A DNA stretch of 64,000 nucleotides from an uncultured Chloroflexia bacterium (GTDB taxonomy: Bacteria > Chloroflexota > Ktedonobacteria > Ktedonobacterales > Ktedonobacteraceae). The translations under genes were made by a program, and so were the position numbers. The notes under the pieces were generated by a model that saw only the letters and a program-made list of their open reading frames with translations, had not been told where the DNA came from and searched no databases. Positions 5,010 to 27,679 of this stretch are shown here, piece after piece. Positions within the stretch are counted from its first letter, which is position 1. Each line of letters starts with the position of its first letter. The stretch covers positions 32,080 to 96,079 of the forward strand of contig CAVTLG010000003.1 of assembly GCA_963735495.1 (NCBI GenBank), in the 5' to 3' direction.

Positions 5010-5324
5010 AGTATCTGCTTTCTGGATAGGTATGCCCATACCACAGTTTAGACCGATTAGAGACACGGAAGAACCCATCGGTTTTACCCCTCTTGTGTTT
5101 TTAAGAGGAACCGCTTCCCTCATGCCGCTATTATAGTATGTCTGTCAAGCAGGATAAGGGAAAAGAAGCAGCCAGGATAGGCAAGGATGAACAAGGATAC
5201 ACTCTGTTTCAGAGGAACGGTTATGATAGCACCATACTGAATGGGAAATAATCGCAACACGTAAGCCGCTCCCGACGTTCTTAAATCCATTTTTTATGTG
5301 TGCTCAAAGGGGTTGTCAGATAGA

Positions 5325-8813: not shown

Positions 8814-9866
8814 TCAAGCATTTCCTAACAGAAATGCCACTGCAAAGACGAGAGCTCCACCACCAACCACCTGCACGATAGAAAGCCACCAACTGGTTCC
8901 GAAGAACTTATGGCGGATCGCAGCAATCACTACGAGCTCAACCGCAACGACAACATAAGCCGTCGTTAGCGCAAGGTGAATATTCGGCAGGAGGAAAGGT
9001 AATGCGTGTCCCAGTCCACTGAGAAATGTCATCAGACCCGTGACGCCTCCACGCAGAAATGGTTTGCCGCGCCCGGTGAGTTCGCCATCGTCGGAGAGCG
9101 CTTCAGAAAAGGCCATGCTAATGCCTGCGCCTAAAGCTGAAGCCAGGCCGATGATAAACGTTGTGAATGGGTTATGCGTTGCGAAAGCCACTGAAAATAT
9201 CGGAGCCAGCGTCGAAACAGAACCATCCATTAAACCCACTAAGCTCGGCTGGACTATTTGCAAAACAAAGTCCCGCGATGCGTCTTCCGCAGGAGCCTCT
9301 TCTGGCTGACTGCGCGTTGCAGCCGGGTTGTTAGGTCCTACTAACATTCCGGCATTGGGAGTAACGGGCATATTCCACGCGGGGTGAAGTGCCGGTTGCG
9401 CCTGCATTGCTTGCGCCTGCATGAGTTGCGCTTGCATCGCTTGCGTTTGCGTCAGTTGCGCCTGGATCGCTTGCAGTTGAGCCTCTATCCCTTGCCCCTG
9501 CATTGGCAAAGGCTGGGACTGTACCGTTCGTGCTTGCATTGGCAAAGGCTGGGACTGCGCAAGAGGGCTTTGCCCTACGTTGATGCTGTACCATTGCTGA
9601 TTAGCGCCCGCGAAGCTGACTCTCATGACAGGTGCGCCATCCGCTCCAAGCGCAGGCTGTGCGCCTTGCGGAAAATTCATGCCATTGGGTGGAGTCTCCT
9701 GCGGTTGCCCATTCACTACAGGTATGCGCCCTCCCGTAACAACTGGCGGCGTAATTTGCCATCCTCTCATGGGGGAAGCGGCCTGCCAATCATCCCCAGC
9801 TAGCGGTGGTGCATATGGGCTGACCGGTCCATCATCCCCGAAGGCTGTCGGTGCATAGTTTGTCAT
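8814..9866 (-). CDS. VIT1/CCC1-family iron/manganese transporter domain with a long low-complexity Q/A/M/P-rich N-terminal extension
   Basis: The C-terminal 170 aa (LVGLMDGSVSTLAPIF...GAGISMAFSEALSDDGE...TM helices) match the VIT1 pattern. The N-terminus contains QAMQAQLMQAQAMQAQ and a duplicated SQPLPMQ. A GAAGGAAAA lies upstream of the ATG. Confidence 0.75.
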   Translation of the reverse strand: MTNYAPTAFGDDGPVSPYAPPLAGDDWQAASPMRGWQITPPVVTGGRIPVVNGQPQETPPNGMNFPQGAQPALGADGAPVMRVSFAGANQQWYSINVGQSPLAQSQPLPMQARTVQSQPLPMQGQGIEAQLQAIQAQLTQTQAMQAQLMQAQAMQAQPALHPAWNMPVTPNAGMLVGPNNPAATRSQPEEAPAEDASRDFVLQIVQPSLVGLMDGSVSTLAPIFSVAFATHNPFTTFIIGLASALGAGISMAFSEALSDDGELTGRGKPFLRGGVTGLMTFLSGLGHALPFLLPNIHLALTTAYVVVAVELVVIAAIRHKFFGTSWWLSIVQVVGGGALVFAVAFLLGNA

Positions 9867-11216: not shown

Positions 11217-11561
11217 ATGAAAAAACGCGTCATCTGGCCGCTCTTGCTGCTCTGTTCCAGCCTGCTGACCGCGCTTGTGGTGTTCCTCGCGCCAACAATC
11301 AGCATCCGCCCGCTGGTGGTCATGTGGTTTCTGTTTATCTGCCCCGGCATGGCATGGGTGCGCTTACTGCGCCTGCATTCCAACCTGGCGGAGTGGACCA
11401 TTGCGCTGGCACTTAGCATTGCGCTTGATGCGCTCGTAGCAGGCATATTTCTCTATGCCAGAGCCTGGTCTCCTGCGTCCATTTTTCTAGTACTTTTGTT
11501 GCTTTGCAGCACAGGCGCTTTTCTGCAAATGATCGTAGATGCCTTTTTTATCAAACTATAA
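11217..11561 (+). CDS. Small polytopic membrane protein, hypothetical
   Basis: A GGAG lies upstream of the ATG. There are 3-4 hydrophobic segments. Confidence 0.45.
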   Translation: MKKRVIWPLLLLCSSLLTALVVFLAPTISIRPLVVMWFLFICPGMAWVRLLRLHSNLAEWTIALALSIALDALVAGIFLYARAWSPASIFLVLLLLCSTGAFLQMIVDAFFIKL

Positions 11562-12231: not shown

Positions 12232-12361
12232 AGATAGATCCAGACACATTTTCCCGGTGTTTTCCTATGAAGCAAGAGAAGAAAGTGACAACTGGAGAAG
12301 TATTTGAGAAGGAAAACGACCCCTGTAAGCCAAAACAGGGAAATCCATCGAAATGCTTGAC

Positions 12362-12426
12362 CATCTCTCGTCTTCTGATCTATTATAGACCCACTGAGTC
12401 TATAATAGATCAGAAGACGAGAGATG
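12362..12426. repeat. Perfect 28-bp inverted repeat with a 9-nt spacer
   Basis: The arms at 12362-12389 and 12399-12426 (CATCTCTCGTCTTCTGATCTATTATAGA / TCTATAATAGATCAGAAGACGAGAGATG) are exact reverse complements. Confidence 0.9.
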
Positions 12427-12523
12427 AAGTATTGGGTTTTGTATGACACACATTTGGCACTATCGATAGCTGCAATATCCAACAATTCTGAGGTAAAATA
12501 GCAAATGGAGGAGAAAACGATGA

Positions 12524-13207
12524 ATGAATCAGCACAATGCACAATCTGGACATGACTGGAATATCTTTGCGCGCGAGCTAAATTCTGTCCTTCAGCAACA
12601 CGGACTGGATTTAGAGCACCTGGATGAGCACATAGGCGTGCATCAGCTAACGCAACGTCGCCTGATCCAGTCATTGGATACACCGGAGAGCCTCCCGGTC
12701 TTAAGCGACGAGGAAATGCAGCAACTCATTCAGGCATTGCAGCTTGCTGAATCAGAGATCTTACACCTGAGAGCGGCTATGCTCGCTACGGCCATACACA
12801 GAGAACTGCTCTTACATATTCAAGAGGATGACGCACAACTGGCAGCAGAGCAGACTTTCTCTATCATTTTCCAATCACTGCAAAAGCACGAGCGCAATCT
12901 GGGGAATAAGCGCAAAGGCGATTTCGGGGGCATCGAAGATCCTGGGCTTGACTACCTGCTGACGCCGGCATGGAACAGGATCGATAGCGGCTGGGAACTG
13001 CTGGATCAGAGCAAACATACAAACGGCCATTCTCACGCCAGTGTAGAGAAAGCCCATCAGGCTCGCGGCAATTTTCAAGTCGCCAGCGATCTTATCAAGA
13101 GGCTGCCCGCTGTTATACGTCAGAAGCCAGCCAGTAAGCACGCGTATAACGCAGCTCAAAAGGGCTTATCATCCGCCACAAAACGGCTGACAGAGCTGGG
13201 TGAGTAA
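12524..13207 (+). CDS. Hypothetical protein with a degenerate HTH-like N-terminus; first gene of the TIR-STAND module
   Basis: It is a 227-aa ORF. The N-terminus FARELNSVLQQHGLDLEHLDEHIGVHQLTQRRLIQSL resembles an XRE-type HTH. It stops 24 nt before the next gene. Confidence 0.55.
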   Translation: MNQHNAQSGHDWNIFARELNSVLQQHGLDLEHLDEHIGVHQLTQRRLIQSLDTPESLPVLSDEEMQQLIQALQLAESEILHLRAAMLATAIHRELLLHIQEDDAQLAAEQTFSIIFQSLQKHERNLGNKRKGDFGGIEDPGLDYLLTPAWNRIDSGWELLDQSKHTNGHSHASVEKAHQARGNFQVASDLIKRLPAVIRQKPASKHAYNAAQKGLSSATKRLTELGE

Positions 13208-13231
13208 CGGTAGCAAGGGGTTTCTACACCA

Positions 13232-16174
13232 TTGAAGGACATATCTATACCGACAAGCACTGGATCTGACAAACCTATCGCCATCTATTATTCCTGCGCG
13301 CATACAAAGGAAGACCAGGCGCTCCTGCAACAATTGAACACGAGTCTGGCGGTGTCGCGACGTAAGCAAGAGATTACCACCTGGCATGAAGGCCAGATCA
13401 GCAGCGGAGGCTCTATTGAGCAGGAGCGCCTGGTACAGTGGGAGCAGGCACAGATCATCTTACTCTTGCTCAGCCCAACCTACATTGCGGACGACCATTG
13501 CTACGCACAAATGCAGTTGGCACTACAGAGGCAGCAAACGGCTGGCACACGTGTCGTTCCTATACTGCTGCGTCCTACACCTGGCTGGGAGGCCATGCCT
13601 ATCGCGGACCTGCAAGCATTACCGCAGGGAAATCGTCCGATTACAAGTTGGAACCAGCGTGAAGAAGCTCTGGCAAACGTCGCTGAGGGGATACACAATG
13701 TCGCCTTACAGTTACGCGAGCAGCAACACCCACTCCTATTGAGCAATGGTGTCATGCGCGTAGAGCCACCTCCCCACCAGCATAGCACGATACTGCCACG
13801 GGAAACGCTGGTCAACGCGCTCTACGCGCAGTTAACCCACTCCGATGTCTCCTCTGTAGTGCTCTCAGGCTTAAAAGGTGTGGGCAAATCAACGCTGGCC
13901 GCCCAGGTCTATGACCTTGCAGAGCAGCGCCGCAGTGCAGGAGAAGGTCCATTTACCGGCGCGGCGCTCTGGCTCAAGATCGAAGCCACAGGCACGCTGA
14001 CAGACCTGCTACGCGTCATCGCTGCCGCATTGCGCCAGGACTACGACAGCATTAACCATCTCCCGCCGCCAGCCAAAGATTTTTCTACTCCTCAGCTCAA
14101 ACCAGATCTAGAAATTTTTTATCTGCTGAAAAACTCCCCGACACCACGGCTGATTGTACTCGATCAGTTCGAGACCTGGCTGGATACCCAGACGGAAACA
14201 CAGCCTGCCAGACAGACAGAGATTAACACGTGGCTCGACCTGCTTAACGACTACCCCTGTGCCAGCCGTATCCTGTTAACCGCTCATACCTATCCTCAGG
14301 GCACAGGCGTTGCTCGTCCACTGTACCGACAGGCATTTCCTCTTGCAGGCTTCCAACCATCCGAAGGCGTGGCATTACTGCGTCTATGGGGCATACCCGA
14401 TGCTGATCGAGAGCTGTTACGCGCAGTTCAACACTGCGAAGGACACGCGCTGGCCCTCGTCCTTTTAGATCAACTACGACGACAGCTCCAGGTGAGCCTG
14501 GCAACCTTACTCGATGATCCCGCCTACAAACAATTATGGCTCAAGGATGTGCAACACAATATATTGGACTACATCTATGAACACCTGTTAAGGGATGAGC
14601 AGCAGCGCCAGTTGCTGCTGGCGTTCTGCATCTACCGCGAGGCCGTGCCATGGTCAGCCGCCTACGCCATTACCCATGCCCAGTCACAGGTCACAGAAGC
14701 ACAAACGCTGCGAGCGTTGGGCGTCCTGCAAGACTACCAGCTCTTCCAGAGGCAAGATAGCGGCGAAAAACGCTATATATTACATCCACTGGTGGCGGAT
14801 TATGCTCACGGTCGCTTTGCTACCGAGGATAACCATAACGGCTCTCCGTCCATTGACGCCCCTACCCAGTCACCAGACGTTTCCTCCACAAGGATGGAGA
14901 TCCCCCATCGCCAGACGCTCGACAAACGCCTGGCTCACGTTGCGGCGGCGCGCTACTACCAGCAGCACTCTCCACAATCTGGTCAACGCCATCAACGCAT
15001 CGATGATGTACACACGCTCATCGAGGCGCTCTGGCATCTTTGTCAGGCAGAGCAATACCAGGAAGCCTACACGCTCATGCGCCAGGAGCATCTTTTCGCT
15101 GATCTCCATCGTTGGGGCAGCAACACTATTTTGCTCAGCTTCTATCACATGCTATTGCCGCTTGAGCGCTGGAATACACAAATGGAGCAAGCTGCGCATA
15201 TCTCCTACGAGATCGGCGAAGTCTACAACGCACTGGGACAATTGCATGCCGCGCGCACTTCTTTTGCCAACGCTCTGGCCTTGTACCGTAACTGTGATCT
15301 CTGGGAGGGAGAAATCAAGGCTCTGAACAGCCTGATGCAGTATCCTCAGACGGATCAATGGCATGGAGAAAGTCAGATGCCGCCTCCCGCGCCTCCCAAC
15401 GGAGGATATGCTACGCGAATGATGCCGAAGAGGTCAAGTGGTTTTGCACCAGGGCCAATTTTCCTGGAGGACGGAGCAATAGAGCAAGCACAGATGTACT
15501 GCTTACAGGCACAACGCCTCGCTGAAAAGCACCCAGGCCACGTTGAGCAGGGCGTCACATTCAATAACCTGGGACAATTGCAGAAAAGGCTGGCACAGAC
15601 AGCACACACAGTCAACGCGAGAAACGCATGTTACCGGCAGGCCCTTACCGACTATAAGCAAGCTCTGGCTATCTACAAAGCATTGGACGATGTGTCAGAG
15701 ATTGCGCGCACGCTGAACAACATGGGTGAAGTCTATGATCAGCTCGATCAATCGAAGCAAGCACTCAACAATTACCGGCGAGCGCTTGGGCATTTTCGCG
15801 AGACTGGCGAGAGACGCGGCGAGGGCATTGTTTGTAATAATCTCGCGTATTATTATAAGCAGCGCCAGGAGAGACAAAACAGCGTTGAATATTATATCCG
15901 TGCGTTACACATCTTCCGTGAAATCGGAGATCGCCGGCACGAAGGGATTGTGCTCAAAAACCTTGGACATCTCTATGTATCAGTGCAGCGCAACGAGGTC
16001 GCGCTGGCCTGTTTTTTGTTAGCCAGAGATAATTTTACGCTCTTAGACGATCCTGAGCGTGGAGCGATAGACGTAGAATTACAAACGCGTCTAGCCGCCG
16101 AGCGGGTATTTGAAAGCATGGTAGCAGAGATATACCCACGTGCAGAGCAGATCATAGAGGGGGAATTCGGGTAA
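13232..16174 (+). CDS. TIR - STAND (NB-ARC-like P-loop NTPase) - TPR protein
   Basis: The TIR-like N-terminus is IAIYYSCAHTKED...IILLLLSPTYIADDHCYAQMQLAL...VVPILLRP. Walker A is GLKGVGKSTLA. C-terminal TPR-like units are FNNLGQL, LNNMGEVY, CNNLAYYY and LKNLGHLY. It starts at TTG 13232. The stop lies inside MITE copy B. Confidence 0.85.
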   Translation: MKDISIPTSTGSDKPIAIYYSCAHTKEDQALLQQLNTSLAVSRRKQEITTWHEGQISSGGSIEQERLVQWEQAQIILLLLSPTYIADDHCYAQMQLALQRQQTAGTRVVPILLRPTPGWEAMPIADLQALPQGNRPITSWNQREEALANVAEGIHNVALQLREQQHPLLLSNGVMRVEPPPHQHSTILPRETLVNALYAQLTHSDVSSVVLSGLKGVGKSTLAAQVYDLAEQRRSAGEGPFTGAALWLKIEATGTLTDLLRVIAAALRQDYDSINHLPPPAKDFSTPQLKPDLEIFYLLKNSPTPRLIVLDQFETWLDTQTETQPARQTEINTWLDLLNDYPCASRILLTAHTYPQGTGVARPLYRQAFPLAGFQPSEGVALLRLWGIPDADRELLRAVQHCEGHALALVLLDQLRRQLQVSLATLLDDPAYKQLWLKDVQHNILDYIYEHLLRDEQQRQLLLAFCIYREAVPWSAAYAITHAQSQVTEAQTLRALGVLQDYQLFQRQDSGEKRYILHPLVADYAHGRFATEDNHNGSPSIDAPTQSPDVSSTRMEIPHRQTLDKRLAHVAAARYYQQHSPQSGQRHQRIDDVHTLIEALWHLCQAEQYQEAYTLMRQEHLFADLHRWGSNTILLSFYHMLLPLERWNTQMEQAAHISYEIGEVYNALGQLHAARTSFANALALYRNCDLWEGEIKALNSLMQYPQTDQWHGESQMPPPAPPNGGYATRMMPKRSSGFAPGPIFLEDGAIEQAQMYCLQAQRLAEKHPGHVEQGVTFNNLGQLQKRLAQTAHTVNARNACYRQALTDYKQALAIYKALDDVSEIARTLNNMGEVYDQLDQSKQALNNYRRALGHFRETGERRGEGIVCNNLAYYYKQRQERQNSVEYYIRALHIFREIGDRRHEGIVLKNLGHLYVSVQRNEVALACFLLARDNFTLLDDPERGAIDVELQTRLAAERVFESMVAEIYPRAEQIIEGEFG

Positions 16175-16262
16175 GGGCGTCACCTCGCGTGCGCCCAGGG
16201 ACGGTCGACAGGACATGCCCCTACCCGAATTCCCAACGTTTCCCTCAGAAGGATGAAGATCC
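16150..16262. repeat. MITE/REP-like element, copy B (left end degenerate)
   Basis: The core is GGGTAAGGGCGTCACCTCGCGTGCGCCCAGGG...GGACATGCCCCTACCC and the right end is AAGGATGAAGATCC. It contains the palindrome GGGAATTCGGGTA.../...TACCCGAATTCCC. Confidence 0.7.
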
Positions 16263-16347
16263 TATATAATTAATATATCAATATATATAAATCAATGGTT
16301 CGTAGTGCATGCCACTTTATCGCAAGACAAGGAGTATAGCAGTCAAC

Positions 16348-17475
16348 ATGGCAAAGATCCTTTTTCTTTCAGCCAACACGCCCATGGGCGACGGATATCT
16401 CAAGACAGACAAAGAATACCGCACGATAGACGAGAAGCTACGCGCAGCCACCTATAGAGATCGCCTGGAATTAGTGTCCGCGTGGGCAGTACGTCCGCTA
16501 GATCTGCTTGACCAGTTGAACCTCCACCATCCCGACATCGTGCATTTTAGTGGACATGGCAATGCTAAAGGCGATCTTATGCTGGTAGGAGCCGACGAAC
16601 TGGCTCGCCCTATTTCTCTGCAAGATCTTAAAACGGTTTTTCAGGCGGTCGAGAGCAATACGCGACTGGTGATTTTGAATACCTGCTATTCCAGGCAGCA
16701 GGCGGAGGAGTTGACGAAGGTGATTGACTGCGTTATTGCGATGAAAGACAGTATTTATGACGACGCGGCCATCGCCTTTACAGGAGCTTTCTACCAGGCT
16801 CTGGGCTATGGACGCTCTATACAAAATGCATTTGCTCAAGGGCTAGCTGCACTCCCAATTGAAGGCATTGAGGGCGCAGATATTCCTGAATTGATCGTAC
16901 GTTCAGGGGTGAATGCAACCAAAATCGTGCTGACAGACCTGGTACAACCATCAGTACATCCAGGGGTGAAGGGAGCAAAAATCGTGCCAACAGACCCGGC
17001 GCAACAACAAGCACAAACGATACCCACGCTTTTTTATGTACACGCACCAGAAGATATAGACTTCTGTGTAGAGCTGGACAAGCAATTCTCCGTTATGAAG
17101 AGAAATGGACTTTTAAGGAGTTTTTATGAGCACGATCTCTTAGGTGGAGATGATATACAAAAAATAGTACAAAAAGAGCTACAAGCAGCAAAAATCATCC
17201 TACTCATTGTCACGCCTAATCTTCTGAGATCACAAGAGATCGATGAGCAACAACTCACACTGGCGTGGAAACTCTATCAAAGTGGAACCCGCGTTATCCC
17301 CATTAAGGTGAGACCTACGATGGACTGGGATCTGACTCCATTTAAAGGTCTCAGTGCATTACCTCGCGACGGGAAACCTGTGTATGCCCCCAAGAAGCGA
17401 GAGGAGGAATTCTATAACATAGCCATGGAGATCCGCCATGTTCTCGATGACGAGCTAAAAAAGCAAAACAATTGA
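16348..17475 (+). CDS. CHAT/caspase-like protease domain fused to a C-terminal TIR domain
   Basis: The His-Cys dyad contexts are DIVHFSGHG and RLVILNTCYS. The C-terminal TIR-like domain is LFYVHAPEDIDF...AKIILLIVTPNLLRSQEIDEQQL...RVIPIKVRP. ATG at 16348 lies downstream of an AAGGAG. Confidence 0.8.
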   Translation: MAKILFLSANTPMGDGYLKTDKEYRTIDEKLRAATYRDRLELVSAWAVRPLDLLDQLNLHHPDIVHFSGHGNAKGDLMLVGADELARPISLQDLKTVFQAVESNTRLVILNTCYSRQQAEELTKVIDCVIAMKDSIYDDAAIAFTGAFYQALGYGRSIQNAFAQGLAALPIEGIEGADIPELIVRSGVNATKIVLTDLVQPSVHPGVKGAKIVPTDPAQQQAQTIPTLFYVHAPEDIDFCVELDKQFSVMKRNGLLRSFYEHDLLGGDDIQKIVQKELQAAKIILLIVTPNLLRSQEIDEQQLTLAWKLYQSGTRVIPIKVRPTMDWDLTPFKGLSALPRDGKPVYAPKKREEEFYNIAMEIRHVLDDELKKQNN

Positions 17476-17616
17476 CCTGATTATTTTGTCATCAGATCGA
17501 TATTCATGTATGTATCTATCAAGCTAGAAATCGGGCTACAACACTTTATAGGTAAAAAATAGCATACGGACTCATGCCCATGGCGCAACGAAGTGTTTTG
17601 CGACCTTAAACCGCTC

Positions 17617-18184: not shown

Positions 18185-19042
18185 TTATCTTATGAGAGTG
18201 AAACGTTCTTCCTCCATAGCTACCGGCGTTCCACAGACATGGGCGATACGCTCCGTAAAAGAAAGTTCCCCCCATCTTCTCTGTGATGGAACGCGACTCC
18301 GATCCGCCAGCGCGTGCAGCCCCTGACAGGCTCGCGTGCGCCCAACCCAACGTACCATCACCATATCTGCCTTCTGTGCCAGCCTCCTTATATATACATG
18401 CAGCAACCAGAGGATGGTCCCAATCAGCACGATACAAGCAAACATATTCAAGAAGCGCGTCAAGAGAGACAGCTCTTGCGAGAAGAGAGCGATCATGGCC
18501 CACACGAGCAGACCTAGTATTGCGCATATCGACAACACACGTGCCAGTACAGCGGTTGGTCTACGCAGCTCTTCGTATCGTGCCAGCCCGCCTGCCAGCA
18601 ACACATCCAGTTCCGCCGGTTTAATAGCCATATGTGCAGGTAAGGTAAGCTGAAGATGCTGTTTACTCAGCAGCACAACGCGTACACGCGGCACCCTGGT
18701 ACGCGGGGTAGAGCGACAAGCGAGCATATGCGTAGCAGGCGACCTATGTGCAGCGTATAAGATACGCGTAAAAGCCTCTTGCACGTTAGCAGGAAACGAG
18801 AAACGCCGTCTTCTGAGCCGTAGCCTGAAAGGTCGCCACACGTGACGTTGACGTCGTTGGGATGAACGCGGTTGTTGTACACCTAATTGTGAGCGAACCT
18901 GCAACCAGGAAGCTGCGGGCAACGGTTGTTCAGGCTGTGCGGGACCATAATAGGACCTCAGCCGTTGCTCAAGTGTATGCTCCATTTCTCGCCCATCCTT
19001 TTTTTCCCCAGCCTCGTCTGCGGGATGCCACTCATGCGTCAT
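18185..19042 (-). CDS. Membrane protein translationally coupled to the ECF sigma factor (putative anti-sigma factor)
   Basis: An ATGA start/stop overlap joins it to the sigma gene. There are two TM helices in the C-terminal half. The function is inferred from position only. Confidence 0.45.
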   Translation of the reverse strand: MTHEWHPADEAGEKKDGREMEHTLEQRLRSYYGPAQPEQPLPAASWLQVRSQLGVQQPRSSQRRQRHVWRPFRLRLRRRRFSFPANVQEAFTRILYAAHRSPATHMLACRSTPRTRVPRVRVVLLSKQHLQLTLPAHMAIKPAELDVLLAGGLARYEELRRPTAVLARVLSICAILGLLVWAMIALFSQELSLLTRFLNMFACIVLIGTILWLLHVYIRRLAQKADMVMVRWVGRTRACQGLHALADRSRVPSQRRWGELSFTERIAHVCGTPVAMEEERFTLIR

Positions 19043-19605
19043 CTCTCACTTCCTTTCATCTCATCCAGCAATAACTCACGACAGCGAGCACGAGCACGAT
19101 TCAAGCGAGATTTGACGGTTCCGACAGGCCAGCCCAGCACGTGCGCGATCTCCCATTCGGTAAGATCGGCCCCATAGCGCAAAGCGATGACGCGCCGTTG
19201 ATCGACGCTGAGCTGAGCCAACACCTGCCGCACCTCTTCTCGCCGAGCAACCTGCTCCTGTGGATCGCTACAACTGTTATCGGCGCACTGTCGTTCGCTC
19301 GCAACAATCTCGTCAAGTGAGAGAGGACGCTCGTAACTGCGTTGTCGCTCAAGCACATCAAGAGCATGGCGATAGAGTATGCGCAACAACCAGGGACGAA
19401 ATGGTCGTCCAGGCTGAAACTGTGGCAATCCACGCCAGGCCAGCAAAAAAGCTCCTTGCGTCACCTCTTCCGCGAGCGCGCGCTGCTGACAGAGTCGGAA
19501 TGCAGCAGCCATGGCGACGGCATGATACGCATCCCAGAGATGCCGAAATGCCTCCTGGTCTCCACACGCTGCTCTTGTGATATACTCATCTTCGCCGATA
19601 CTCAC
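19039..19605 (-). CDS. ECF-type RNA polymerase sigma-70 family factor
   Basis: Region 2 is AFRHLWDAYH...LLAWRGLPQF. Region 4 is LSVDQRRVIALRYGADLTEWEIAHVLGWPVGTVKSRLNRAR. The proposed GTG start at 19605 has a GAGAGGAA 7 nt upstream. The longer ORF (to 19800) runs through a MITE. Confidence 0.8.
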   Translation of the reverse strand: MSIGEDEYITRAACGDQEAFRHLWDAYHAVAMAAAFRLCQQRALAEEVTQGAFLLAWRGLPQFQPGRPFRPWLLRILYRHALDVLERQRSYERPLSLDEIVASERQCADNSCSDPQEQVARREEVRQVLAQLSVDQRRVIALRYGADLTEWEIAHVLGWPVGTVKSRLNRARARCRELLLDEMKGSER

Positions 19606-19655
19606 ACCGTCATTCCTCTCTTCTGTAGAAGTATTACGGCTATAGCAGGTCAAAA

Positions 19656-19812
19656 GGTTCCCATTTTCCGGTAACAGTGTTTTATTGCTGGGAAAACGTT
19701 GACAAATGGGGTAGGGGCGTGTCCTTGCGACCGCCCTGGGGGCCACGAGGCGAGCCACCGGGCGCACGCAAGGTGACGCCCCTACCCCATTTTCCCACAA
19801 GGATGGAGAACC
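19656..19812. repeat. MITE/REP-like element, copy C (with an internal 20-nt insertion)
   Basis: The core is GGGGTAGGGGCGTGTCC...GCGCACGCAAGGTGACGCCCCTACCCC. The right end is AAGGATGGAGAACC and the left end GGTTCCCATTTTCC is degenerate. Confidence 0.7.
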
Positions 19813-21161: not shown

Positions 21162-21400
21162 TTGAGCTGTGTTAAACTGTGCAAACGTACGTTCGAGCAG
21201 ATCCTGGCTCCCAGCCTGCATCCGGGACAGATCGTGATCCTGGACAATCTCTCGATTCACCTGGGACCTCATGTGAAGCAGGCCATCGCTGCCAGAGACT
21301 GCCAGCTCCTGTTTTTGCCAGCGTACTCGCCCGATTTTTTCCCCGATTGAGGGGGCCTTTTCTAAAAGGACTCTTGTCAGAGACACATCACCAGAACAGC
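21162..21400 (+). pseudogene. Remnant of an IS630-family DDE transposase (C-terminal fragment, frameshifted)
   Basis: PGQIVILDNLSIHLGPHVKQAIAARDCQLLFLPAYSPDF followed, after a frame change in a T-run, by PIEGAFSK matches the IS630 DDE C-terminal pattern (DN.S.H...LPPYSPDLNPIE..FSKLK). No N-terminal part or terminal inverted repeats were seen. Confidence 0.65.
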
Positions 21401-23132: not shown

Positions 23133-24047
23133 TTAACTTACCTCGTAGCTTTTGAGCAAGAACTCTTTAGCACGTTCTAAATCTGCATCAGTTTTCAGAG
23201 AAATCTCTAAGCTGCCCGTTCCATAGTGACCAATCTTGCGCACATCGCGAGTAAACCCATCTTCCAATTGAATGTCATCCGGGTTTACTTTGACAAAAAG
23301 CACAATGCGCCTGGACTGGGCATGAACTTCTATGCAAGCAAAATTCTTGATGCGCCTGAAAGCAATATAGAACTTCAGCGTTTTCATCTGTACATCGTCA
23401 CCGAGTGCTATCAAAAAAGCTTTAAGCGCCTCAAAACGATCCTGAACATCAGGCGCAGCTTGCGCTAATTGTTCCATAACAGTCTTTTCATTGGATCTTC
23501 CCTGATTTTTCGCGGGCGTATCAGTAGGCGTTGCAATTGGTTGTGAGGTAACTGCACTTCCTAATTCAAGTAATAATAATTCAGTCCCATATCTCCTATA
23601 GCGAATTAATTCGATATCACGATTGATCTGTTGTACTGCGTGCTCATCGTACTTTGTAAAATCGTTGGCGATACAAAGCAAGCGAGGAAATGTCCATTCT
23701 ATTTTGTCAGCTTCTTTCTCCCCGAGCTTTTTGAGCACAAGCAGTTCAAACTCAGCCTTGTGATCCATCAGCCAGTCGAGGTAGAAGAGACCCTGGTTGA
23801 TGACGTTTTCGTTCAGCGCACGCTTGTATTCAATGATCACAGGTGAACCATTCTCATCGATGCCTAGTGTATCTATTCTTCCCCCATGTGTTTTCCCCGT
23901 GGAATATTCGGTTGCTAAGAACTGTACTCCAAGCAAGGCATCTAGATTTTTCTCAATGAGGGTTTGTAGCGTTTTTTTCAATAGCAATGGAAGTACCTTG
24001 CAATTCCTGAAAGCTTCCATTGTGTATTTGGAATAACTTGATATCAC
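23133..24047 (-). CDS. NucS/DUF91-like PD-(D/E)xK nuclease domain protein with a DUF5655-like C-terminus
   Basis: GRIDTLGIDENGSPVIIEYK is a PD-(D/E)xK signature. The C-terminal FYIAFRRIKNFACIE...LFVKV resembles DUF5655. The gene is AT-rich. Confidence 0.6.
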   Translation of the reverse strand: MISSYSKYTMEAFRNCKVLPLLLKKTLQTLIEKNLDALLGVQFLATEYSTGKTHGGRIDTLGIDENGSPVIIEYKRALNENVINQGLFYLDWLMDHKAEFELLVLKKLGEKEADKIEWTFPRLLCIANDFTKYDEHAVQQINRDIELIRYRRYGTELLLLELGSAVTSQPIATPTDTPAKNQGRSNEKTVMEQLAQAAPDVQDRFEALKAFLIALGDDVQMKTLKFYIAFRRIKNFACIEVHAQSRRIVLFVKVNPDDIQLEDGFTRDVRKIGHYGTGSLEISLKTDADLERAKEFLLKSYEVS

Positions 24048-24111
24048 TCATTCTCTATATAACTCAAAATTTACTTAAAATCTCATTCTTCTCATTTACG
24101 GCCTCTTTCCA

Positions 24112-25743
24112 CTATGTATCTGGTTGCGCATCTTTCCAATCTTCCGGTATCTGAATTTTTGCTTCTATTCCTGCATTTTCTTTAAGCAAATACAGTAGAT
24201 TGCTTCCACTCAGCAGTTCTAGTGGCTTGCCTTCGGCGAATTCAAACGAAGCTTTTCCATAGCCACTAGTCGTTACCAATATTCCTTTTGAAGCTCCTTC
24301 ATTTTGCACAGTACCATAAAGATCGCGTACTGCACTTACACCAACAGTATGCTTATAACGTTTGGCTTGGATAACCACTTTCCCACCAAAAATGGGACGC
24401 GTATCAAATGCCACACAGTCGACTCCTCCATCACGCGATGCCTGCGTTTGCCGTGTTTCCAGGCCCATTTTTTGAAATAAGTTGGTGATGAGAGACTCGA
24501 ATTCCGTAGGAGTAAGCTCCATCAAGTTAGGACGTTGATCAAGTTCCGAAAGTACATCAACCTCTTCAACAAAACGAGCATCAACCATATTGAATTCCAG
24601 GACAGGCCGTACCGGAGCCAATTCTACAGGGCTTTTAGAGACAGAAGCATTGAGGGTGATAAGACAAGTCTGTGGGTCCACCTGACTCAAATTCAGTTTC
24701 ATGAAGACATCACGACTAGTACGAATGGTAATAAGGCAGGTACGTATAGATCGTCCTGTTCCTTTATCAATACTGTCAACATAGCCATTGAAAACAATCA
24801 TATCCAAATGCTTCGTACGATCAGCACAGAATAGTTCATAGAGAGTACGTAGCGTAATCTGTGCAATGGTAGAAGAATACAGAGTTTTTCGTTGTGCCAG
24901 TGGCCGAGACGTCTCCGTAACGCTATCTTTTGACTTTATATATTTATAGATACCAATTTCAGGGATGACCTCAAATGCAGGCAAGTCATACTCAACCACC
25001 AACTGTTTAGACTCAGGCACATAGGCTAGTTTCGCTTGTTGCGGAAAACTGTCAGGATAAGCGCTTGAGGCAAGCACCATCGTAAAATACTCAACAACGG
25101 CCTGGGGAGAACCAGCGAGCCAATCACGCTGAAAGCTATCTATCTCAGCATGCTGCACGGCAACTCGCTGCTGCTCTTCTAATACTTGACGCTCAAATTG
25201 TGATCTCATTTCTGAAAGTGCCTGCTGGCGAGCAGCTTCACGGCTTACATGAATGGCCACATGAGACCTATACAGATCCTGTGCTCTCGCGACCTCTTGA
25301 GCATATTTTTCCTTCGCGCCTGGTAAGAGTTTCTGAAATCCAGTCAGTTCTGGTGGCTTATACATAGCTTGTGGCGGTGGTTCTGGTGTCGCCAGGGTTC
25401 CAGGGTTGAATATAGGCAAATTAGGAGCTTGTTTCAGGGACTGAATATCAATGTAAGTATCTAAAGAAAGAGAGCGCACTAACAGGCTTTCCAGTAATTT
25501 TACCTGCTGCTCCAACTGCTCATTCTGATAATTAACCTGAGCTATTCTTGACTCCACATAGAGTCTAGCCCGTTCTTTTTGATCAGCAGTTTTAGCTTGT
25601 TCATAAGCTTTTTTAGCCTTCTCAGCTTCCTTTGCAGCTTTCGACTGTAATTTATCCATCTCACGATAATGGGCAAGCCGCTTTTTTTCTGCATCACGTT
25701 GTGCCCGTGCAAGGGCATGTACCAGTCCACTTCTCCGTGCCAT
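24112..25743 (-). CDS. Restriction endonuclease-like protein with an N-terminal coiled coil and a C-terminal Mrr-cat nuclease domain
   Basis: The C-terminus is LTPTEFESLITNLFQKMG...DGGVDCVAF...VVIQAKRY...ILVTTSGY. The N-terminus is K/E/Q/A-rich and helical. An AAGGAGAAA lies upstream of the ATG at 25743. Confidence 0.75.
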   Translation of the reverse strand: MARRSGLVHALARAQRDAEKKRLAHYREMDKLQSKAAKEAEKAKKAYEQAKTADQKERARLYVESRIAQVNYQNEQLEQQVKLLESLLVRSLSLDTYIDIQSLKQAPNLPIFNPGTLATPEPPPQAMYKPPELTGFQKLLPGAKEKYAQEVARAQDLYRSHVAIHVSREAARQQALSEMRSQFERQVLEEQQRVAVQHAEIDSFQRDWLAGSPQAVVEYFTMVLASSAYPDSFPQQAKLAYVPESKQLVVEYDLPAFEVIPEIGIYKYIKSKDSVTETSRPLAQRKTLYSSTIAQITLRTLYELFCADRTKHLDMIVFNGYVDSIDKGTGRSIRTCLITIRTSRDVFMKLNLSQVDPQTCLITLNASVSKSPVELAPVRPVLEFNMVDARFVEEVDVLSELDQRPNLMELTPTEFESLITNLFQKMGLETRQTQASRDGGVDCVAFDTRPIFGGKVVIQAKRYKHTVGVSAVRDLYGTVQNEGASKGILVTTSGYGKASFEFAEGKPLELLSGSNLLYLLKENAGIEAKIQIPEDWKDAQPDT

Positions 25744-25927
25744 ACATTCTTTCTCCTTCATCCCTACGTAAAATAATGTGCAATTTTCTGTATGAGTACT
25801 ATTGAAGTAATACTTATATTTAATAACTCAACTATGTAGTACCCAATATTAACAGAGAATAAACAGAAATGCAAGATCGATTTTTCGATATAACATAGAC
25901 GATACGTACTAACAAGTACTTTATAGC

Positions 25928-26149
25928 CTATGCAACACAATCCTTACTCAAATTCTCAGTCTGCTCAATCAGCGTATTGACCGCCTCTTCCCGCTTCTCC
26001 TGCGGATAACCATGCTTCTTTAGCAGGCGTTTGATGATGACGCGTATGTTGGCGCGCGTACTCTCCTTGAGCGCCCAATCTATCGTTACGCTGCGACGCA
26101 CTGCCACTATCAGCTCTTGCGCAATAACTTTGAGTTGTACATCACCCAA
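25928..26149 (-). pseudogene. Orphan C-terminal fragment of a type I restriction enzyme R subunit (HsdR, DUF3387-like tail)
   Basis: IAQELIVAVRRSVTIDWALKESTRANIRVIIKRLLKKHGYPQEKREEAVNTLIEQTENL matches the conserved HsdR C-terminal tail (..TIDW..RE..RA.LR..VKR.L.KYGYPP). It encodes only 73 aa. No hsdM or hsdS is present. Confidence 0.65.
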
Positions 26150-26165
26150 AACCTCTAGCGCGCTC

Positions 26166-27164: not shown

Positions 27165-27679
27165 GGAATCTTCTCCAAAAAGACATTTCTACCCATATCA
27201 ACAATACGTACCGTCTCGCCTCGCTTAATGCGCCGACGTGTAATCAGAGAATATGACTCTGCCTCATTGTCTATAGTGATCTCATAGAGATGGTAACCAA
27301 GAATGCTAAACATAGGATTAATGCTTATCATTTCTGAGTTAATATAGACAATGCCCAACACTATCATGAAAATTAGCAGTACGGCGATCTGTTGCCAGCC
27401 GTTTAACGGAAACGCCACAAACGGGATAATATAGCTGGCAATATAGCCCATTACATCTCCATCGCGTATCTGCCGTCCAGTAATCTTCCCTTGAATTGCT
27501 GCCATGCCCGGGGCGATTTTGAAAAAGTATACATAGGTAAATATCAACCCAACAACTCCGATGACCAATGCGCTCCATGCCAACACTGGCTGCTGTGTCA
27601 AGAAAAGTATCCACATAATGAGCGCTAACGGAAAGTACGAGCTAATAAACAACATGCAGCGTACGAAAATGGTAGGCAT
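27152..27679 (-). CDS. KwaA-like four-TM membrane protein
   Basis: It encodes 175 aa with four predicted TM helices. A GAAAGGA lies upstream of the ATG. It overlaps the downstream gene by 13 nt. Confidence 0.45.
   Translation of the reverse strand: MPTIFVRCMLFISSYFPLALIMWILFLTQQPVLAWSALVIGVVGLIFTYVYFFKIAPGMAAIQGKITGRQIRDGDVMGYIASYIIPFVAFPLNGWQQIAVLLIFMIVLGIVYINSEMISINPMFSILGYHLYEITIDNEAESYSLITRRRIKRGETVRIVDMGRNVFLEKIPWVK

What the first reader, a model, noticed from the sequence alone, without database searches (positions are those of the whole stretch)
12524..17475. HTH-like / TIR-STAND-TPR / CHAT-TIR three-gene module: candidate apoptosome-like immune or cell-death system
There are three co-directional genes.
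1. Gene 1 (12524-13207, 227 aa) has a degenerate XRE-like HTH.
2. Gene 2 (13232-16174, 980 aa) reads TIR-like N-terminus (IAIYYSCAH..IILLLLSPTYI..VVPILLRP), then Walker A GLKGVGKST, then C-terminal TPR-like units.
3. Gene 3 (16348-17475) reads a caspase/CHAT-like His-Cys dyad (DIVHFSGHG, LVILNTCYS), then a second TIR-like domain (LFYVHAPED..KIILLIVTPNLL..VIPIKVRP).

TIR-bearing STAND NTPases (Avs-like) and CHAT/caspase proteases are each established components of bacterial conflict systems. A STAND sensor and a caspase-like protease that both carry a TIR suggest a specific model. In this model the TIR is the shared homotypic adaptor, analogous to CARD-CARD recruitment of caspase-9 by Apaf-1, so NTPase oligomerisation could activate the protease. 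I know of no named system with this composition.
Basis: partly seen in the sequence, partly recalled or inferred. Interest (0 to 1): 0.85.

Follow-up and report, generated by a model that had tools for sequence, protein, structure and literature searches.

The report
TIR-linked STAND sensor and caspase-like protease
A three-gene cassette in a Ktedonobacteria-like genome pairs an NLR-type sensor ATPase with a caspase-like protease; both carry a TIR domain lacking its NAD-cleaving residues, so TIR here probably acts as a docking module, as in animal immunity, not as an enzyme.

Summary
Three co-directional genes encode a 227-aa helical protein (g1), a TIR-NB-ARC-TPR STAND NTPase (g2) and a CHAT-TIR protease (g3). 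All domain calls hold except the g1 HTH, which is only weakly supported.

Comparative genomics supports a functional module. The block 12437-17512 recurs as a unit, with unrelated flanks, in one other Chloroflexota MAG.

g1 belongs to a large unnamed family (361 clusters at 50% identity). Its members sit directly upstream of either a TIR-NB-ARC gene or a caspase gene. The g1 + TIR-STAND core pairs with interchangeable effectors that also carry a TIR (CHAT-TIR here, PNP-TIR elsewhere). This follows the "effector-associated domain" logic of Kaur et al. 2020, with TIR as the shared domain.

In the window both TIRs have Gln at the catalytic Glu column (Cat1 E74; MyD88 also has Gln there). Gln-type TIRs as a class are degraded at the other active-site positions. 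Both window TIRs are under purifying selection.

Best reading: TIR is a non-enzymatic assembly adaptor that recruits the protease to the oligomerised STAND. This is inference; no interaction or phenotype was tested.

Verdict: a new variant of a known kind, moderately to highly interesting.

The parts
12437..17512 (+). Whole cassette: the block conserved as a unit with the only syntenic relative (L001/L003, an uncultured Chloroflexia MAG). The flanks are unrelated.
   Evidence: blastn window vs L001 gives 74-89% identity from 12437 to 17512 only.
12524..13207 (+). g1: a 227-aa soluble all-helical 'constant component'. Weak XRE-HTH-like N-terminal third, a disordered loop at residues 126-137, then a helical bundle.
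   Evidence: No Pfam, NCBIfam or PADLOC hit. AF2 pLDDT 83.5. Family of 361 clusters at 50% identity. Always 5' of a TIR-NB-ARC gene or a caspase gene. dN/dS 0.19.
12911..12913 (+). g1 Arg130: a conserved basic residue in the disordered loop, and a candidate protease cleavage site (speculative).
   Evidence: R or K in 49 of 52 non-gap sequences, 3.26 bits, the best-conserved column of the segment. The loop has pLDDT <50.
13232..16174 (+). g2: TIR-NB-ARC-TPR STAND NTPase (980 aa, TTG start).
   Evidence: Pfam and PADLOC hits. Family alignment. The MKDI N-terminus is conserved in L001.
13274..13726 (+). g2 N-terminal TIR domain (residues ~15-165), Gln-type.
   Evidence: TIR_2 E=3e-10 and PADLOC ThsB 6e-29. 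90.7% identical to L001, dN/dS 0.15.
13508..13510 (+). g2 Gln93 (CAA) at the catalytic-Glu column of the TIR.
   Evidence: Aligned to Cat1 E74. hmmalign columns. Coordinates.
13757..14911 (+). g2 NB-ARC-like NTPase module. Walker A is at 13868-13894, the Walker B Asp311 at 14162-14164, GHALAL from 14441 and LHPLVAD from 14780.
   Evidence: Pfam NACHT/NB-ARC/AAA_16. The motifs are invariant in alignment A3. Coordinates.
15030..16066 (+). g2 C-terminal TPR array (the presumed sensor), interrupted by a low-complexity Pro/Gly-rich insert.
   Evidence: TPR_12 matched in three stretches, E=1e-20. Sequence shown. The insert is absent from L001.
16348..17475 (+). g3: CHAT-TIR protein (375 aa), separated from g2 by a 173-nt AT-rich gap.
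   Evidence: Pfam CHAT plus TIR. Two-domain AF2 model with a disordered linker at 199-221. Sequence.
16348..16941 (+). g3 compact CHAT (caspase-like) protease domain. Catalytic His70 is at 16555-16557 and Cys113 at 16684-16686.
   Evidence: H70 and C113 are invariant in 23 homologues. Foldseek match to SAVED-CHAT 8tl0, E=2.6e-14, rmsd 2.9. dN/dS 0.26.
17029..17472 (+). g3 C-terminal TIR domain, Gln-type. Gln302 (CAA) at 17251-17253 lies at the catalytic-Glu column.
   Evidence: TIR_2/TIR hits and PADLOC ThsB 2e-20. Column mapping. dN/dS 0.17. Foldseek matches to MAL, TRAM and MyD88 TIRs.
12362..12426 (.). 65-nt near-perfect palindrome just outside the left edge of the cassette, overlapping a sigma-70-like promoter match. 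It may be an operator, a terminator or a boundary element. Whether it belongs to the module is uncertain.
   Evidence: 32-nt arms, 97% complementary. Unique in the window. Promoter-like site at 12357-12386.

Best explanation
This is a self-contained three-gene conflict (cell-death or abortive-infection type) cassette.

Shown:
- g2 is an NB-ARC-type STAND NTPase with a C-terminal TPR array and an N-terminal TIR.
- g3 is a compact CHAT (caspase-like Cys-His) protease fused to a second TIR.
- g1 is the constant partner gene of a wider, previously unnamed family of caspase-associated systems.
- Both TIRs have Gln in place of the catalytic Glu. Gln-type TIRs as a class are degraded at the other NAD-pocket positions. 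Both window TIRs are kept under purifying selection.

Inferred mechanism:
1. A trigger is bound by the TPR array.
2. The NB-ARC module exchanges nucleotide and oligomerises, which clusters the N-terminal TIRs.
3. The clustered TIRs form a TIR-TIR assembly that incorporates the TIR of g3.
4. Bringing CHAT domains together activates the protease. Its closest solved relative, SAVED-CHAT, was captured in an activated filament.
5. The protease then cleaves cellular targets, and possibly g1 itself at the conserved Arg130 loop.

In this lineage TIR would therefore be an assembly and recruitment adaptor, like MyD88/MAL, and not an NADase. In sister systems that keep the Glu and pair with PNP-TIR, the same TIR-TIR co-assembly would also be enzymatic.

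g1 is most likely a regulator: an HTH-like autorepressor, and/or an inhibitor or substrate of the protease. Confidence in that role is low.
For: 1. Domains and catalytic dyad.

2. Discrete cassette: the homology block is 12437-17512 with unrelated flanks. All domains have dN/dS 0.15-0.26.

3. g1 lies directly 5' of a TIR-NB-ARC(-TPR) gene in every close relative examined: WIN, L001, L083, L084, L085-88, L095 (twice), L096, L097. The same holds in 11 further metagenome loci.

4. The effector is swapped while the TIR is kept. It is CHAT-TIR in WIN and L001, and PNP_UDP_1-TIR or TIR-PNP in L084, L085-87, L110, L116, L125 and L128. By my tally, 9 of 14 g1 + TIR-STAND loci with adequate flanks hold a second TIR-bearing ORF.

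5. In a survey chosen only by the CHAT motif, a second TIR ORF lies within 6 kb in 5 of 14 CHAT-TIR loci and in 0 of 59 CHAT-without-TIR loci (Fisher p=1.3e-4). The partners include TIR-STAND-TPR, TIR-nSTAND1-WD40, TIR-TPR-WD40 and TIR-TPR.

6. The catalytic column is anchored to Cat1 E74, an active-site residue tested by mutation (PMC12162218), and to the AbTIR and 7uxr Glu. MyD88 has Gln there. g2 Q93 and g3 Q302 are Gln in both WIN and L001. Ten of the closest STAND-TIR relatives are also Gln-type.

7. Gln-type TIRs are degraded at the other pocket positions compared with Glu-type TIRs: S7 45% vs 84%, Y8 30% vs 78%, S68 55% vs 97%, aromatic position 70 5% vs 80%.

8. The CHAT domain's closest structure is PDB 8tl0, titled 'Structure of activated SAVED-CHAT filament'.

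9. TIR active sites and filaments are built from TIR-TIR contacts (Cat1, PMC12162218), so co-assembly is an intrinsic property of the fold.
Against: - No physical interaction, multimer model or phenotype was obtained.
- The two TIRs share only 30% identity and are not each other's closest relatives. The EAD hallmark of closest paralogues in adjacent genes is therefore not met.
- The exact trio was seen in only one other genome, and there the STAND gene changes frame twice. That could be decay or long-read sequencing error.
- Most Gln-type STAND cores (L095, L096, L097, L098) have no TIR-bearing partner nearby.
- Many CHAT-TIR genes are solo (L002), or sit next to NB-ARC proteins that have no TIR (L008, L015, L017, L018, L025), or are fused to an NTPase (L020, L021).
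- g3 has its own 173-nt AT-rich upstream region and could be expressed independently.
- The Gln-type sequences come from a few clades, so the residue statistics are not phylogenetically independent.
- ORF calls and several HMMs were home-made.
- The immediate neighbours of the cassette are housekeeping-like. Defence-type genes lie only 4-10 kb away.
Confidence: 0.45

Rival explanations
1. g1-centred protease system. The primary functional pair is g1 and the caspase-superfamily protease, as in the g1 + C14-caspase two-gene loci. g1 would be the protease's inhibitor, pro-substrate or sensor. The TIR-STAND would be an accessory or parallel sensor, and the TIR-TIR match would be secondary. This partly overlaps the best explanation rather than excluding it.
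For: The ORF directly downstream of g1 is a Peptidase_C14 caspase in 17 of 38 assessable non-redundant loci, often with a 4-nt overlap. 15 of 16 loci of at least 8 kb hold a caspase or CHAT ORF. These caspases resemble the EACC1-associated caspase type (E~1e-20 to 1e-25). Arg/Lys130 is conserved in the only disordered loop of g1.
Against: In the window's own branch, g1 is always followed by the TIR-STAND and not by the protease. PNP-TIR variants L084 and L128 show no protease next to g1. Cleavage of g1 is pure conjecture. This model does not explain why both proteins carry a TIR.
Confidence: 0.25
2. Thoeris-like signalling. The STAND's TIR makes an NAD-derived second messenger on activation. 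The CHAT-TIR protein senses it, or makes its own, and the protease is switched on in trans, as in type IV Thoeris.
For: Type IV Thoeris couples a TIR to a caspase-like protease through N7-cADPR (bioRxiv 10.1101/2024.10.24.620036). Sister systems keep Glu in both TIRs (L083-85, L109-128). Mixed Glu/Gln or Glu/Ile pairs exist (L089, L092, L094, L063/66/68).
Against: Both TIRs in the window and in L001 have Gln at the catalytic column, and Gln-type TIRs are degraded at the other pocket positions, so no producer is left. No known signal-sensing domain (SLOG, Macro, SAVED, CARF) was found in g3. PADLOC gives only generic ThsB-TIR hits and no Thoeris effector.
Confidence: 0.08
3. Two independent effectors, co-located by chance or by defence-island clustering. 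g2 would be a self-contained TIR-STAND and g3 an autonomous CHAT-TIR toxin or sensor with its own promoter. The shared TIR would be coincidental.
For: There is a 173-nt AT-rich gap before g3. Solo CHAT-TIR genes exist (L002). The partner TIRs are only 30% identical. Most Gln-type cores lack a TIR partner.
Against: The cassette is conserved as one block with sharp edges. A second TIR is enriched next to CHAT-TIR genes (p=1.3e-4). TIR-bearing effectors (PNP-TIR) recur next to the same core. A TIR-STAND with a dead TIR would have no output of its own.
Confidence: 0.15
4. A decaying or non-immune module. The E-to-Q changes and the frameshifts in L001 would reflect loss of function, or the system would serve development or regulation in a multicellular Ktedonobacterium rather than defence.
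For: The L001 STAND gene changes frame twice. The immediate neighbours are housekeeping-like. CHAT proteases such as HetF act in cyanobacterial development (weak NCBIfam hit).
Against: dN/dS is 0.15-0.26 in every domain, including both Gln-type TIRs. The Gln state is shared by about 10 clade members. The ORFs are intact in the window. L001 comes from a metagenome assembly in which indel errors are plausible. Mobile-element and defence genes lie nearby (IS110/DDE_5/HNH in L001; DDE_3 remnant, Mrr and KwaB-like in the window).
Confidence: 0.07

Closest known systems
EAD-coupled conflict systems, the 'EAD principle' (Kaur, Burroughs, Iyer, Aravind 2020 eLife PMC7159879; 2021 eLife PMC8195603)
   Same: The same domain sits on the N-terminus of a core NTPase and on separately encoded, interchangeable effectors (caspase-like, PNPase and others). 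The published prediction is that effectors are recruited through domain-domain contacts, in explicit analogy to Death-fold adaptors. These systems are enriched in multicellular bacteria. This CHAT module is itself fused elsewhere to other small domains of this type (Pfam PF19955, PF19960, PF19964; I recognise these accessions as EADs from memory and did not check).
   Different: The shared domain here is a TIR, which those papers treat as an enzymatic effector, and not one of the 12 small EADs or Death-like domains. The two copies are divergent (30% identity) rather than closest paralogues. Both are catalytically degenerate. A new constant component (g1) is present.
EACC1-caspase two-gene system (Kaur et al. 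2020, 'System 4')
   Same: A conserved 5' 'constant component' gene is followed by a caspase-superfamily gene. The caspases that follow distant g1 relatives hit NCBIfam caspase_w_EACC1 at E~1e-20 to 1e-25.
   Different: EACC1 is a single-pass membrane domain, while g1 is a soluble 227-aa helical protein with no sequence match to it. Those caspase scores (73-87 bits) are below the family cut-off of 140. In the window's branch the gene 3' of g1 is a TIR-STAND, and the protease is a CHAT-TIR.
Apaf-1/caspase-9 apoptosome and bacterial Apaf-1-like NB-ARC-WD40 proteins
   Same: An NB-ARC STAND with a repeat sensor. Under the model, a caspase-fold protease is recruited through a shared N-terminal or C-terminal interaction domain and activated by induced proximity. 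Cyanobacterial CHAT-TIR genes sit directly upstream of NB-ARC-APAF1_C-WD40 genes (L008, L017, L025).
   Different: The proposed adaptor is TIR, not CARD. The sensor is TPR, not WD40. The protease is CHAT, not a true caspase. Recruitment has not been demonstrated.
Type IV Thoeris (TIR plus caspase-like protease; Rousset et al., bioRxiv 10.1101/2024.10.24.620036)
   Same: Combines TIR and a caspase-like protease in one bacterial immune module.
   Different: In Thoeris IV the coupling is through the diffusible signal N7-cADPR made by an active TIR. Here both TIRs lack the catalytic Glu, the protease itself carries a TIR, and a STAND NTPase is present.
SAVED-CHAT of type III CRISPR signalling (PDB 8tl0)
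   Same: It is the closest solved structure to the g3 protease domain (E=2.6e-14, 27% identity). The entry is titled an activated filament, so it is a CHAT solved in an oligomeric active state.
   Different: Its assembly domain is SAVED, driven by a cyclic oligoadenylate (from my knowledge of that system, not checked here). In g3 the non-protease domain is a TIR and no nucleotide sensor is present.
Animal TLR adaptors (MyD88, MAL, TRAM) and plant TIR-NB-ARC-LRR receptors
   Same: MyD88 has Gln at the same column as g2 Q93 and g3 Q302. The g3 TIR model matches the MAL, TRAM and MyD88 TIR assemblies. g2 has the TIR-NB-ARC-repeat layout of plant TNLs.
   Different: These are separated by very large evolutionary distance. 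Plant TNL TIRs are active NADases. The downstream partner here is a protease, not a kinase or a helper NLR.
Avs / bNACHT TIR-STAND anti-phage proteins
   Same: A single-chain STAND with an N-terminal TIR and a C-terminal repeat sensor.
   Different: No PADLOC Avs or bNACHT model hits g2. In those systems the TIR is described as an NAD+-depleting effector, whereas here it is predicted to be inactive and is accompanied by g1 and a TIR-tagged protease.

Membership tests
TIR domain (fold) | Significant match to TIR profiles and a flavodoxin-like TIR fold. | tested here: met
   g2: TIR_2 3e-10 and PADLOC ThsB 6e-29. g3: TIR_2 1.6e-6 and ThsB 2e-20. The g3 AF2 model matches MAL, TRAM, MyD88 and SPARTA TIRs. 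The family profile hits Cat1, AbTIR and MyD88.
TIR NADases (enzymatic TIRs: Thoeris ThsB, AbTIR, Cat1, SARM1) | A catalytic Glu in the W/F-x-x-x-E motif (Cat1 E74), plus a conserved NAD pocket. | tested here: not met
   g2 has Q93 and g3 has Q302 at the column aligned to Cat1 E74. Other pocket positions are degraded in Gln-type TIRs. Enzymatic activity itself was not assayed.
STAND NTPase, NB-ARC/AP-ATPase type | Walker A, Walker B, a GxP-like motif and an MHD-like motif, followed by a repeat array. | tested here: met
   GVGKST, LIVLDQFE, GHALAL and LHPLVAD are invariant in the family. Pfam NB-ARC, NACHT and AAA_16 hits are just above their cut-offs for g2, and NB-ARC is reported without a weak mark in relatives L084 and L095. 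TPR_12 E=1e-20.
CHAT / caspase-superfamily protease | Caspase-hemoglobinase fold with a conserved His-Cys dyad. | tested here: met
   CHAT E=1.8e-8. H70 and C113 are invariant in 23 sequences. Foldseek matches 8tl0 at E=2.6e-14, and also caspase-7, caspase-3 and separase.
Type IV Thoeris | A catalytically active ThsB-type TIR that produces N7-cADPR, plus a separate caspase-like effector that senses it. | tested here: not met
   Both TIRs lack the catalytic Glu. The architecture differs: there is a STAND, and the TIR is fused to the protease. PADLOC gives only generic TIR hits.
Avs / AVAST or bNACHT (as modelled in PADLOC) | A match to the family's NTPase models. | tested here: not met
   No Avs or bNACHT model hits at E<=0.1. 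Only ThsB-TIR, TPR and a marginal RtcR AAA hit were found.
EAD-coupled systems (Kaur et al. 2020) | (a) The same small non-catalytic domain on the core NTPase N-terminus and on stand-alone effectors. (b) Effectors are interchangeable. (c) Adjacent copies are each other's closest relatives. | tested here: inconclusive
   (a) and (b) are met with TIR as the shared domain. (c) is not met in the window (30% identity, rank 18-29 of 35). TIR is not one of the defined EADs.
EACC1-caspase two-gene system | A 5' gene encoding the single-TM EACC1 domain and a 3' gene with an N-terminal caspase. | tested here: not met
   By reading the translation, g1 has no hydrophobic segment long enough to span a membrane. 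It has no hit to any Pfam or NCBIfam model. EACC1 is described as a single TM helix. The partner caspases of distant g1 relatives score 73-87 bits against a cut-off of 140.
XRE-family HTH regulators (for g1) | A significant match to HTH_3/HTH_31-type profiles, or a five-helix XRE fold. | tested here: inconclusive
   g1 itself has no Pfam hit. One of 10 members gives E~0.03 hits. Foldseek gives partial matches to C.BclI, HigA and CI repressors, all at E>0.1. hhalign against the fused HTH_3 of the neighbouring STAND is negative.

The most novel reading that the evidence does not exclude
Some bacterial TIR domains have given up NAD+ chemistry and act purely as heterotypic assembly adaptors. They would recruit a caspase-like protease, and in sister systems a PNP nucleosidase, to an oligomerised NB-ARC sensor. 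That would be a prokaryotic hybrid of Myddosome and apoptosome. It would mean the scaffold role of TIR known from animal TLR signalling also arose, or already existed, in bacteria. In addition, g1 would define a new and widespread soluble 'constant component' family that regulates caspase-superfamily proteases, possibly as a cleaved substrate or inhibitor.
Probability: 0.35. Interest if true: 0.85.

Novelty: new variant of a known kind. Interest (0 to 1): 0.62.

Why it matters
In the literature I consulted, bacterial TIR domains are treated as enzymes: NAD+ depleters or signal synthases. Adaptor-type TIR signalling is regarded as an animal feature.

A conserved, selected pair of catalytically degenerate TIRs that links a STAND sensor to a caspase-like protease would be direct evidence that the enzyme-to-adaptor transition also happened in prokaryotes. 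It would provide a simple three-gene system in which to study induced-proximity activation of a caspase-fold protease by an NLR-like ATPase.

Sister systems with Glu-bearing TIRs and PNP-TIR effectors offer a natural evolutionary series from enzymatic to scaffold TIR.

The g1 family has hundreds of clusters and no Pfam model, and it is almost always found next to a caspase or CHAT gene. It is therefore an unannotated marker for a sizeable group of candidate cell-death or immune systems in Chloroflexota-like soil bacteria.

Tried and rejected
1. g1 as EACC1: rejected. EACC1 is a single-TM domain and g1 is soluble with no profile hit.

2. g1 as a relative of the HTH_3 domain fused to sister NB-ARC-TPR proteins: hhalign was negative.

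3. Assigning the g1 fold: Foldseek against the PDB and viral libraries, and profile searches against the PDB and Pfam, gave only non-significant partial HTH or helical-bundle matches.

4. The 'closest paralogue in the same locus' test for the two TIRs: not met in the window.

5. phmmer of the g2 NTPase module against the PDB: no hit. phmmer of the g3 TIR alone against the PDB: no hit, so a family profile was needed.

6. A metagenome scan with the broad 56-sequence g1 alignment failed because no stretch was conserved enough. It was repeated with the 10-sequence alignment.

7. A Thoeris-like signalling reading: considered and down-weighted because both TIRs lack the catalytic Glu.

8. Literature searches for an earlier description of CHAT-TIR plus TIR-STAND, or of non-catalytic bacterial TIR adaptors, found none in the papers examined. 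This is not an exhaustive search.

9. Multimer modelling of TIR-TIR contacts was not possible with the tools available.


Full report
OBSERVATION

The three co-directional ORFs are real.

g1 (12524-13207, 227 aa) has no hit in Pfam, NCBIfam or PADLOC.

g2 (13232-16174, TTG start, 980 aa) carries an N-terminal TIR (Pfam TIR_2 3e-10; PADLOC ThsB-type TIR 6e-29). It also has a STAND NTPase module (NACHT, NB-ARC and AAA_16 all just above threshold) and C-terminal TPRs (TPR_12 1e-20). In a family alignment, Walker A (GVGKST), Walker B (LIVLDQFE), a GxP-like GHALAL and an MHD-like LHPLVAD are invariant. The NTPase is therefore NB-ARC/AP-ATPase-like.

g3 is best started at 16348, because its orthologue begins with the same MAKILFLSAN. 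It is a compact CHAT domain (E=2e-8) followed by a TIR. His70 and Cys113 are invariant in 23 homologues. An AF2 model (pLDDT 84.8) shows two domains joined by a disordered linker. The protease domain matches the SAVED-CHAT filament 8tl0 (E=2.6e-14), and the C-terminal domain matches TIR structures including MAL, TRAM and MyD88.

The g1-g2 gap is 24 nt. The g2-g3 gap is 173 nt and AT-rich.

IS IT A MODULE?

The closest relative of g3 (71% identity) lies in an uncultured Chloroflexia MAG, with the same g1, TIR-STAND, CHAT-TIR order and transposases nearby. DNA similarity between the two genomes runs from 12437 to 17512 only, which is exactly the three genes. The cassette is therefore a discrete, probably mobile unit.

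All domains are under purifying selection (dN/dS 0.15-0.26).

One caveat: the MAG's STAND gene changes frame twice. That could be decay or assembly indel error.

g1 DEFINES A WIDER FAMILY OF SYSTEMS

The word-indexed search found only 10 g1 homologues. An exhaustive profile search found 361 clusters at 50% identity, 157 of them at E<=1e-30. Nearly all are standalone proteins of about 225 aa.

In every close relative examined, g1 sits directly upstream of a TIR-NB-ARC-TPR gene: Reticulibacter mediterranei L083, and L084-88, L095 (twice), L096 and L097.

A g1-centred metagenome survey gave 73 loci, 56 of them non-redundant. Of the 38 with enough downstream sequence to assess, the ORF immediately downstream was:
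- a Peptidase_C14 caspase in 17, often with a 4-nt overlap;
- a TIR-NB-ARC gene in 11, plus one partial;
- a TPR-CHAT protein in 2 (L101 by my HMM; L120 by Pfam).

15 of 16 loci of at least 8 kb contain a caspase-superfamily ORF.

The caspases that follow distant g1 relatives resemble NCBIfam 'caspase, EACC1-associated type' (E~1e-20 to 1e-25), but their scores are below that family's cut-off. EACC1 itself is a single-TM domain (Kaur et al. 2020), and g1 is soluble and helical (AF2 pLDDT 83.5). So g1 is not EACC1. It does occupy the same genomic position.

The g1 fold could not be assigned. Only weak partial matches of the N-terminal third to XRE-type repressors were found. The one disordered loop of g1 (residues 126-137) carries the best-conserved column of that segment: Arg/Lys130 in 49 of 52 non-gap sequences. 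I flag this, speculatively, as a candidate cleavage site for an Arg/Lys-specific caspase-like protease.

THE TIR-TIR LINK

Within the window, the non-CHAT part of g3 is homologous to the N-terminus of g2 (phmmer E=8e-19 within the locus).

The same g1 + TIR-STAND core pairs elsewhere with a different effector that is also fused to a TIR. This is PNP_UDP_1-TIR or TIR-PNP in L084, L085-87, L110, L116, L125 and L128. Large TPR-CHAT proteins are often present as well (L095, L109, L110, L113, L116, L125). By my tally, 9 of 14 g1 + TIR-STAND loci with adequate flanks contain a second TIR-bearing ORF.

There is independent evidence from a separate survey. Among 80 genome loci selected only through the CHAT motif, a second TIR ORF lies within 6 kb of 5 of 14 CHAT-TIR genes and of 0 of 59 CHAT genes without a TIR (Fisher p=1.3e-4). 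The partners there and in metagenome contigs are sensor-like: TIR-TPR, TIR-TPR-WD40 and TIR-nSTAND1-WD40.

Other CHAT-TIR genes are directly followed by NB-ARC-WD40 (Apaf-1-like) or NB-ARC-TPR proteins that lack an N-terminal domain, or are fused as CHAT-TIR-NTPase. Some are solo.

This is the pattern that Kaur et al. (2020, 2021) call the EAD principle: a shared domain on the core and on interchangeable effectors. The difference is that the shared domain is TIR. One EAD hallmark fails here, because the two window TIRs are only 30% identical and are not each other's nearest relatives.

THE TIRs ARE PREDICTED TO BE NADase-DEAD

A TIR family profile aligns its conserved Glu with Cat1 E74, which lines the NADase site and was tested by mutation (PMC12162218). 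It also aligns with the corresponding Glu of AbTIR and of 7uxr. Human MyD88 has Gln at that column.

g2 has Gln93 and g3 has Gln302 there, and both are CAA codons. The orthologous pair in L001 is the same.

Among the closest STAND relatives, 10 have Gln. The Glu-bearing members include Reticulibacter (L083) and the PNP-TIR-associated cores.

In a pooled, non-redundant set of 64 Glu-type and 20 Gln-type TIRs, the Gln-type TIRs are also degraded at the other pocket positions. The figures are Ser7 45% vs 84%, Tyr8 30% vs 78%, Ser68 55% vs 97%, and aromatic position 70 5% vs 80%.

Even so, both window TIRs are under purifying selection, and the g2 TIR is the most conserved domain of the cassette (90.7% identity, dN/dS 0.15). 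They are therefore retained for a non-catalytic function.

Other pairs are mixed: Glu/Gln in L089, L092 and L094, and Glu/Ile in L063, L066 and L068. This fits hetero-oligomeric TIR assemblies in which not every subunit needs to be catalytic.

MECHANISM (INFERRED)

1. The TPR array senses a trigger.
2. The NB-ARC module oligomerises.
3. The TIRs cluster.
4. The g3 TIR joins the assembly.
5. CHAT is activated by proximity and cleaves its targets.

The precedent for step 5 is that the nearest solved structure is a CHAT in an activated filament (8tl0). The precedent for steps 3 and 4 is that TIR active sites and filaments are built from TIR-TIR contacts (Cat1 paper). g1 is a regulator of unknown mode.

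Nothing here tests binding, activity or phenotype. I put the full model at about 0.45.

CONTEXT

The immediate neighbours are not defence genes: nitroreductase, VIT1, HMA and an ECF sigma factor. A second STAND (HTH_3-NB-ARC-TPR) lies at 2328-5123.

Between 4 and 10 kb to the right there is a DDE_3 transposase remnant, an Mrr-type endonuclease and a KwaB-like protein, in a low-GC stretch.

Homologue names and locus titles point to Ktedonobacteria/Chloroflexota.

NOVELTY

The components and the adaptor logic are known. PADLOC recognises no system here, and none of the papers I read describes CHAT-TIR plus TIR-STAND, a non-catalytic bacterial TIR adaptor, or the g1 family.

I rate it a new variant of a known kind.

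LIMITS

- ORFs in fetched loci were called with a simple greedy script.
- The TIR, CHAT, PNP, C14 and g1 profiles were built in-session.
- Metagenome loci are partly redundant and phylogenetically clustered.
- The literature search was not exhaustive.

Noticed in passing
window 12362-12426: A 65-nt near-perfect palindrome (32-nt arms, 97% complementary, 1-nt spacer), unique in the window. It lies 11 nt left of the cassette homology block and overlaps a sigma-70-like TTGACC-18-TATTAT match. It could be an operator for g1, a terminator of the upstream HMA-domain ORF, or an insertion boundary.
   Followed up: partly
window 16161-16234: An imperfect inverted repeat (36-nt arms, 75% complementary) spans the g2 stop codon and the g2-g3 spacer. 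The spacer 16160-16268 is not conserved in L001.
   Followed up: no
window 2328-5123 (- strand): A second STAND NTPase: HTH_3-NB-ARC-DUF7779-TPR, 931 aa. Sister NB-ARC-TPR proteins of g2 also carry a fused XRE-type HTH (P0165, P0166). There is no detectable relation to g1.
   Followed up: partly
window 21162-21350; 23133-27679: A DDE_3 (IS630-like) transposase remnant. Further right, in a low-GC (~42%) stretch, lie a DUF5655/NucS-like protein, an Mrr_cat restriction endonuclease (549 aa) and a KwaB-like (Kiwa) protein. A 175-aa ORF just upstream of the KwaB-like gene could be KwaA. Together these look like a small defence islet.
   Followed up: partly
window 18185-19800 (- strand): An ECF sigma factor (253 aa) overlaps by 4 nt a downstream 285-aa Arg-rich ORF with no Pfam hit, possibly an anti-sigma factor. 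It is adjacent to the cassette but is not conserved next to it in L001.
   Followed up: no
window 11502-11560 and L001 6119-6177: A 59-nt stretch, 91.5% identical, lies upstream of both cassettes although the rest of the flanks are unrelated. It may be a short repeat element or the remnant of a cassette end.
   Followed up: no
L095 (ERZ25039533 contig_22961), whole locus: Two tandem g1 + TIR(Gln)-NB-ARC-TPR modules are interleaved with three proteins of 1400-1550 aa that carry a C-terminal CHAT domain.
   Followed up: partly
L008, L017, L025 (cyanobacteria): CHAT-TIR(Glu) genes are directly followed by Apaf-1-like NB-ARC-APAF1_C-WD40 proteins that have no N-terminal domain. Fused forms also exist: CHAT-TIR-AAA_35 (L020) and CHAT-TIR-nSTAND5 (L021). 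This suggests fission and fusion of an effector head from STAND proteins.
   Followed up: partly
L141, L155, L169, L164, L137 and others: Distant g1 relatives form a two-gene unit with a ~415-aa Peptidase_C14 caspase (4-nt overlap). In L141 this is followed by a double-zinc-ribbon-TIR protein of 742 aa. L150 has a prokaryotic SLOG (LSDAT_prok) gene upstream and several TIR genes nearby.
   Followed up: partly
L097 5718-10229: A g1 + TIR(Gln)-STAND pair lies next to GAP1-M and DO-GTPase2 proteins (the GTPase-centric system of Kaur et al. 2020) and an FGE-sulfatase-like ORF.
   Followed up: no
window 8814-9866 (- strand): A VIT1-family protein has a long low-complexity N-terminal region rich in Gln, Ala, Met and Pro (MQAQ repeats).
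   Followed up: no
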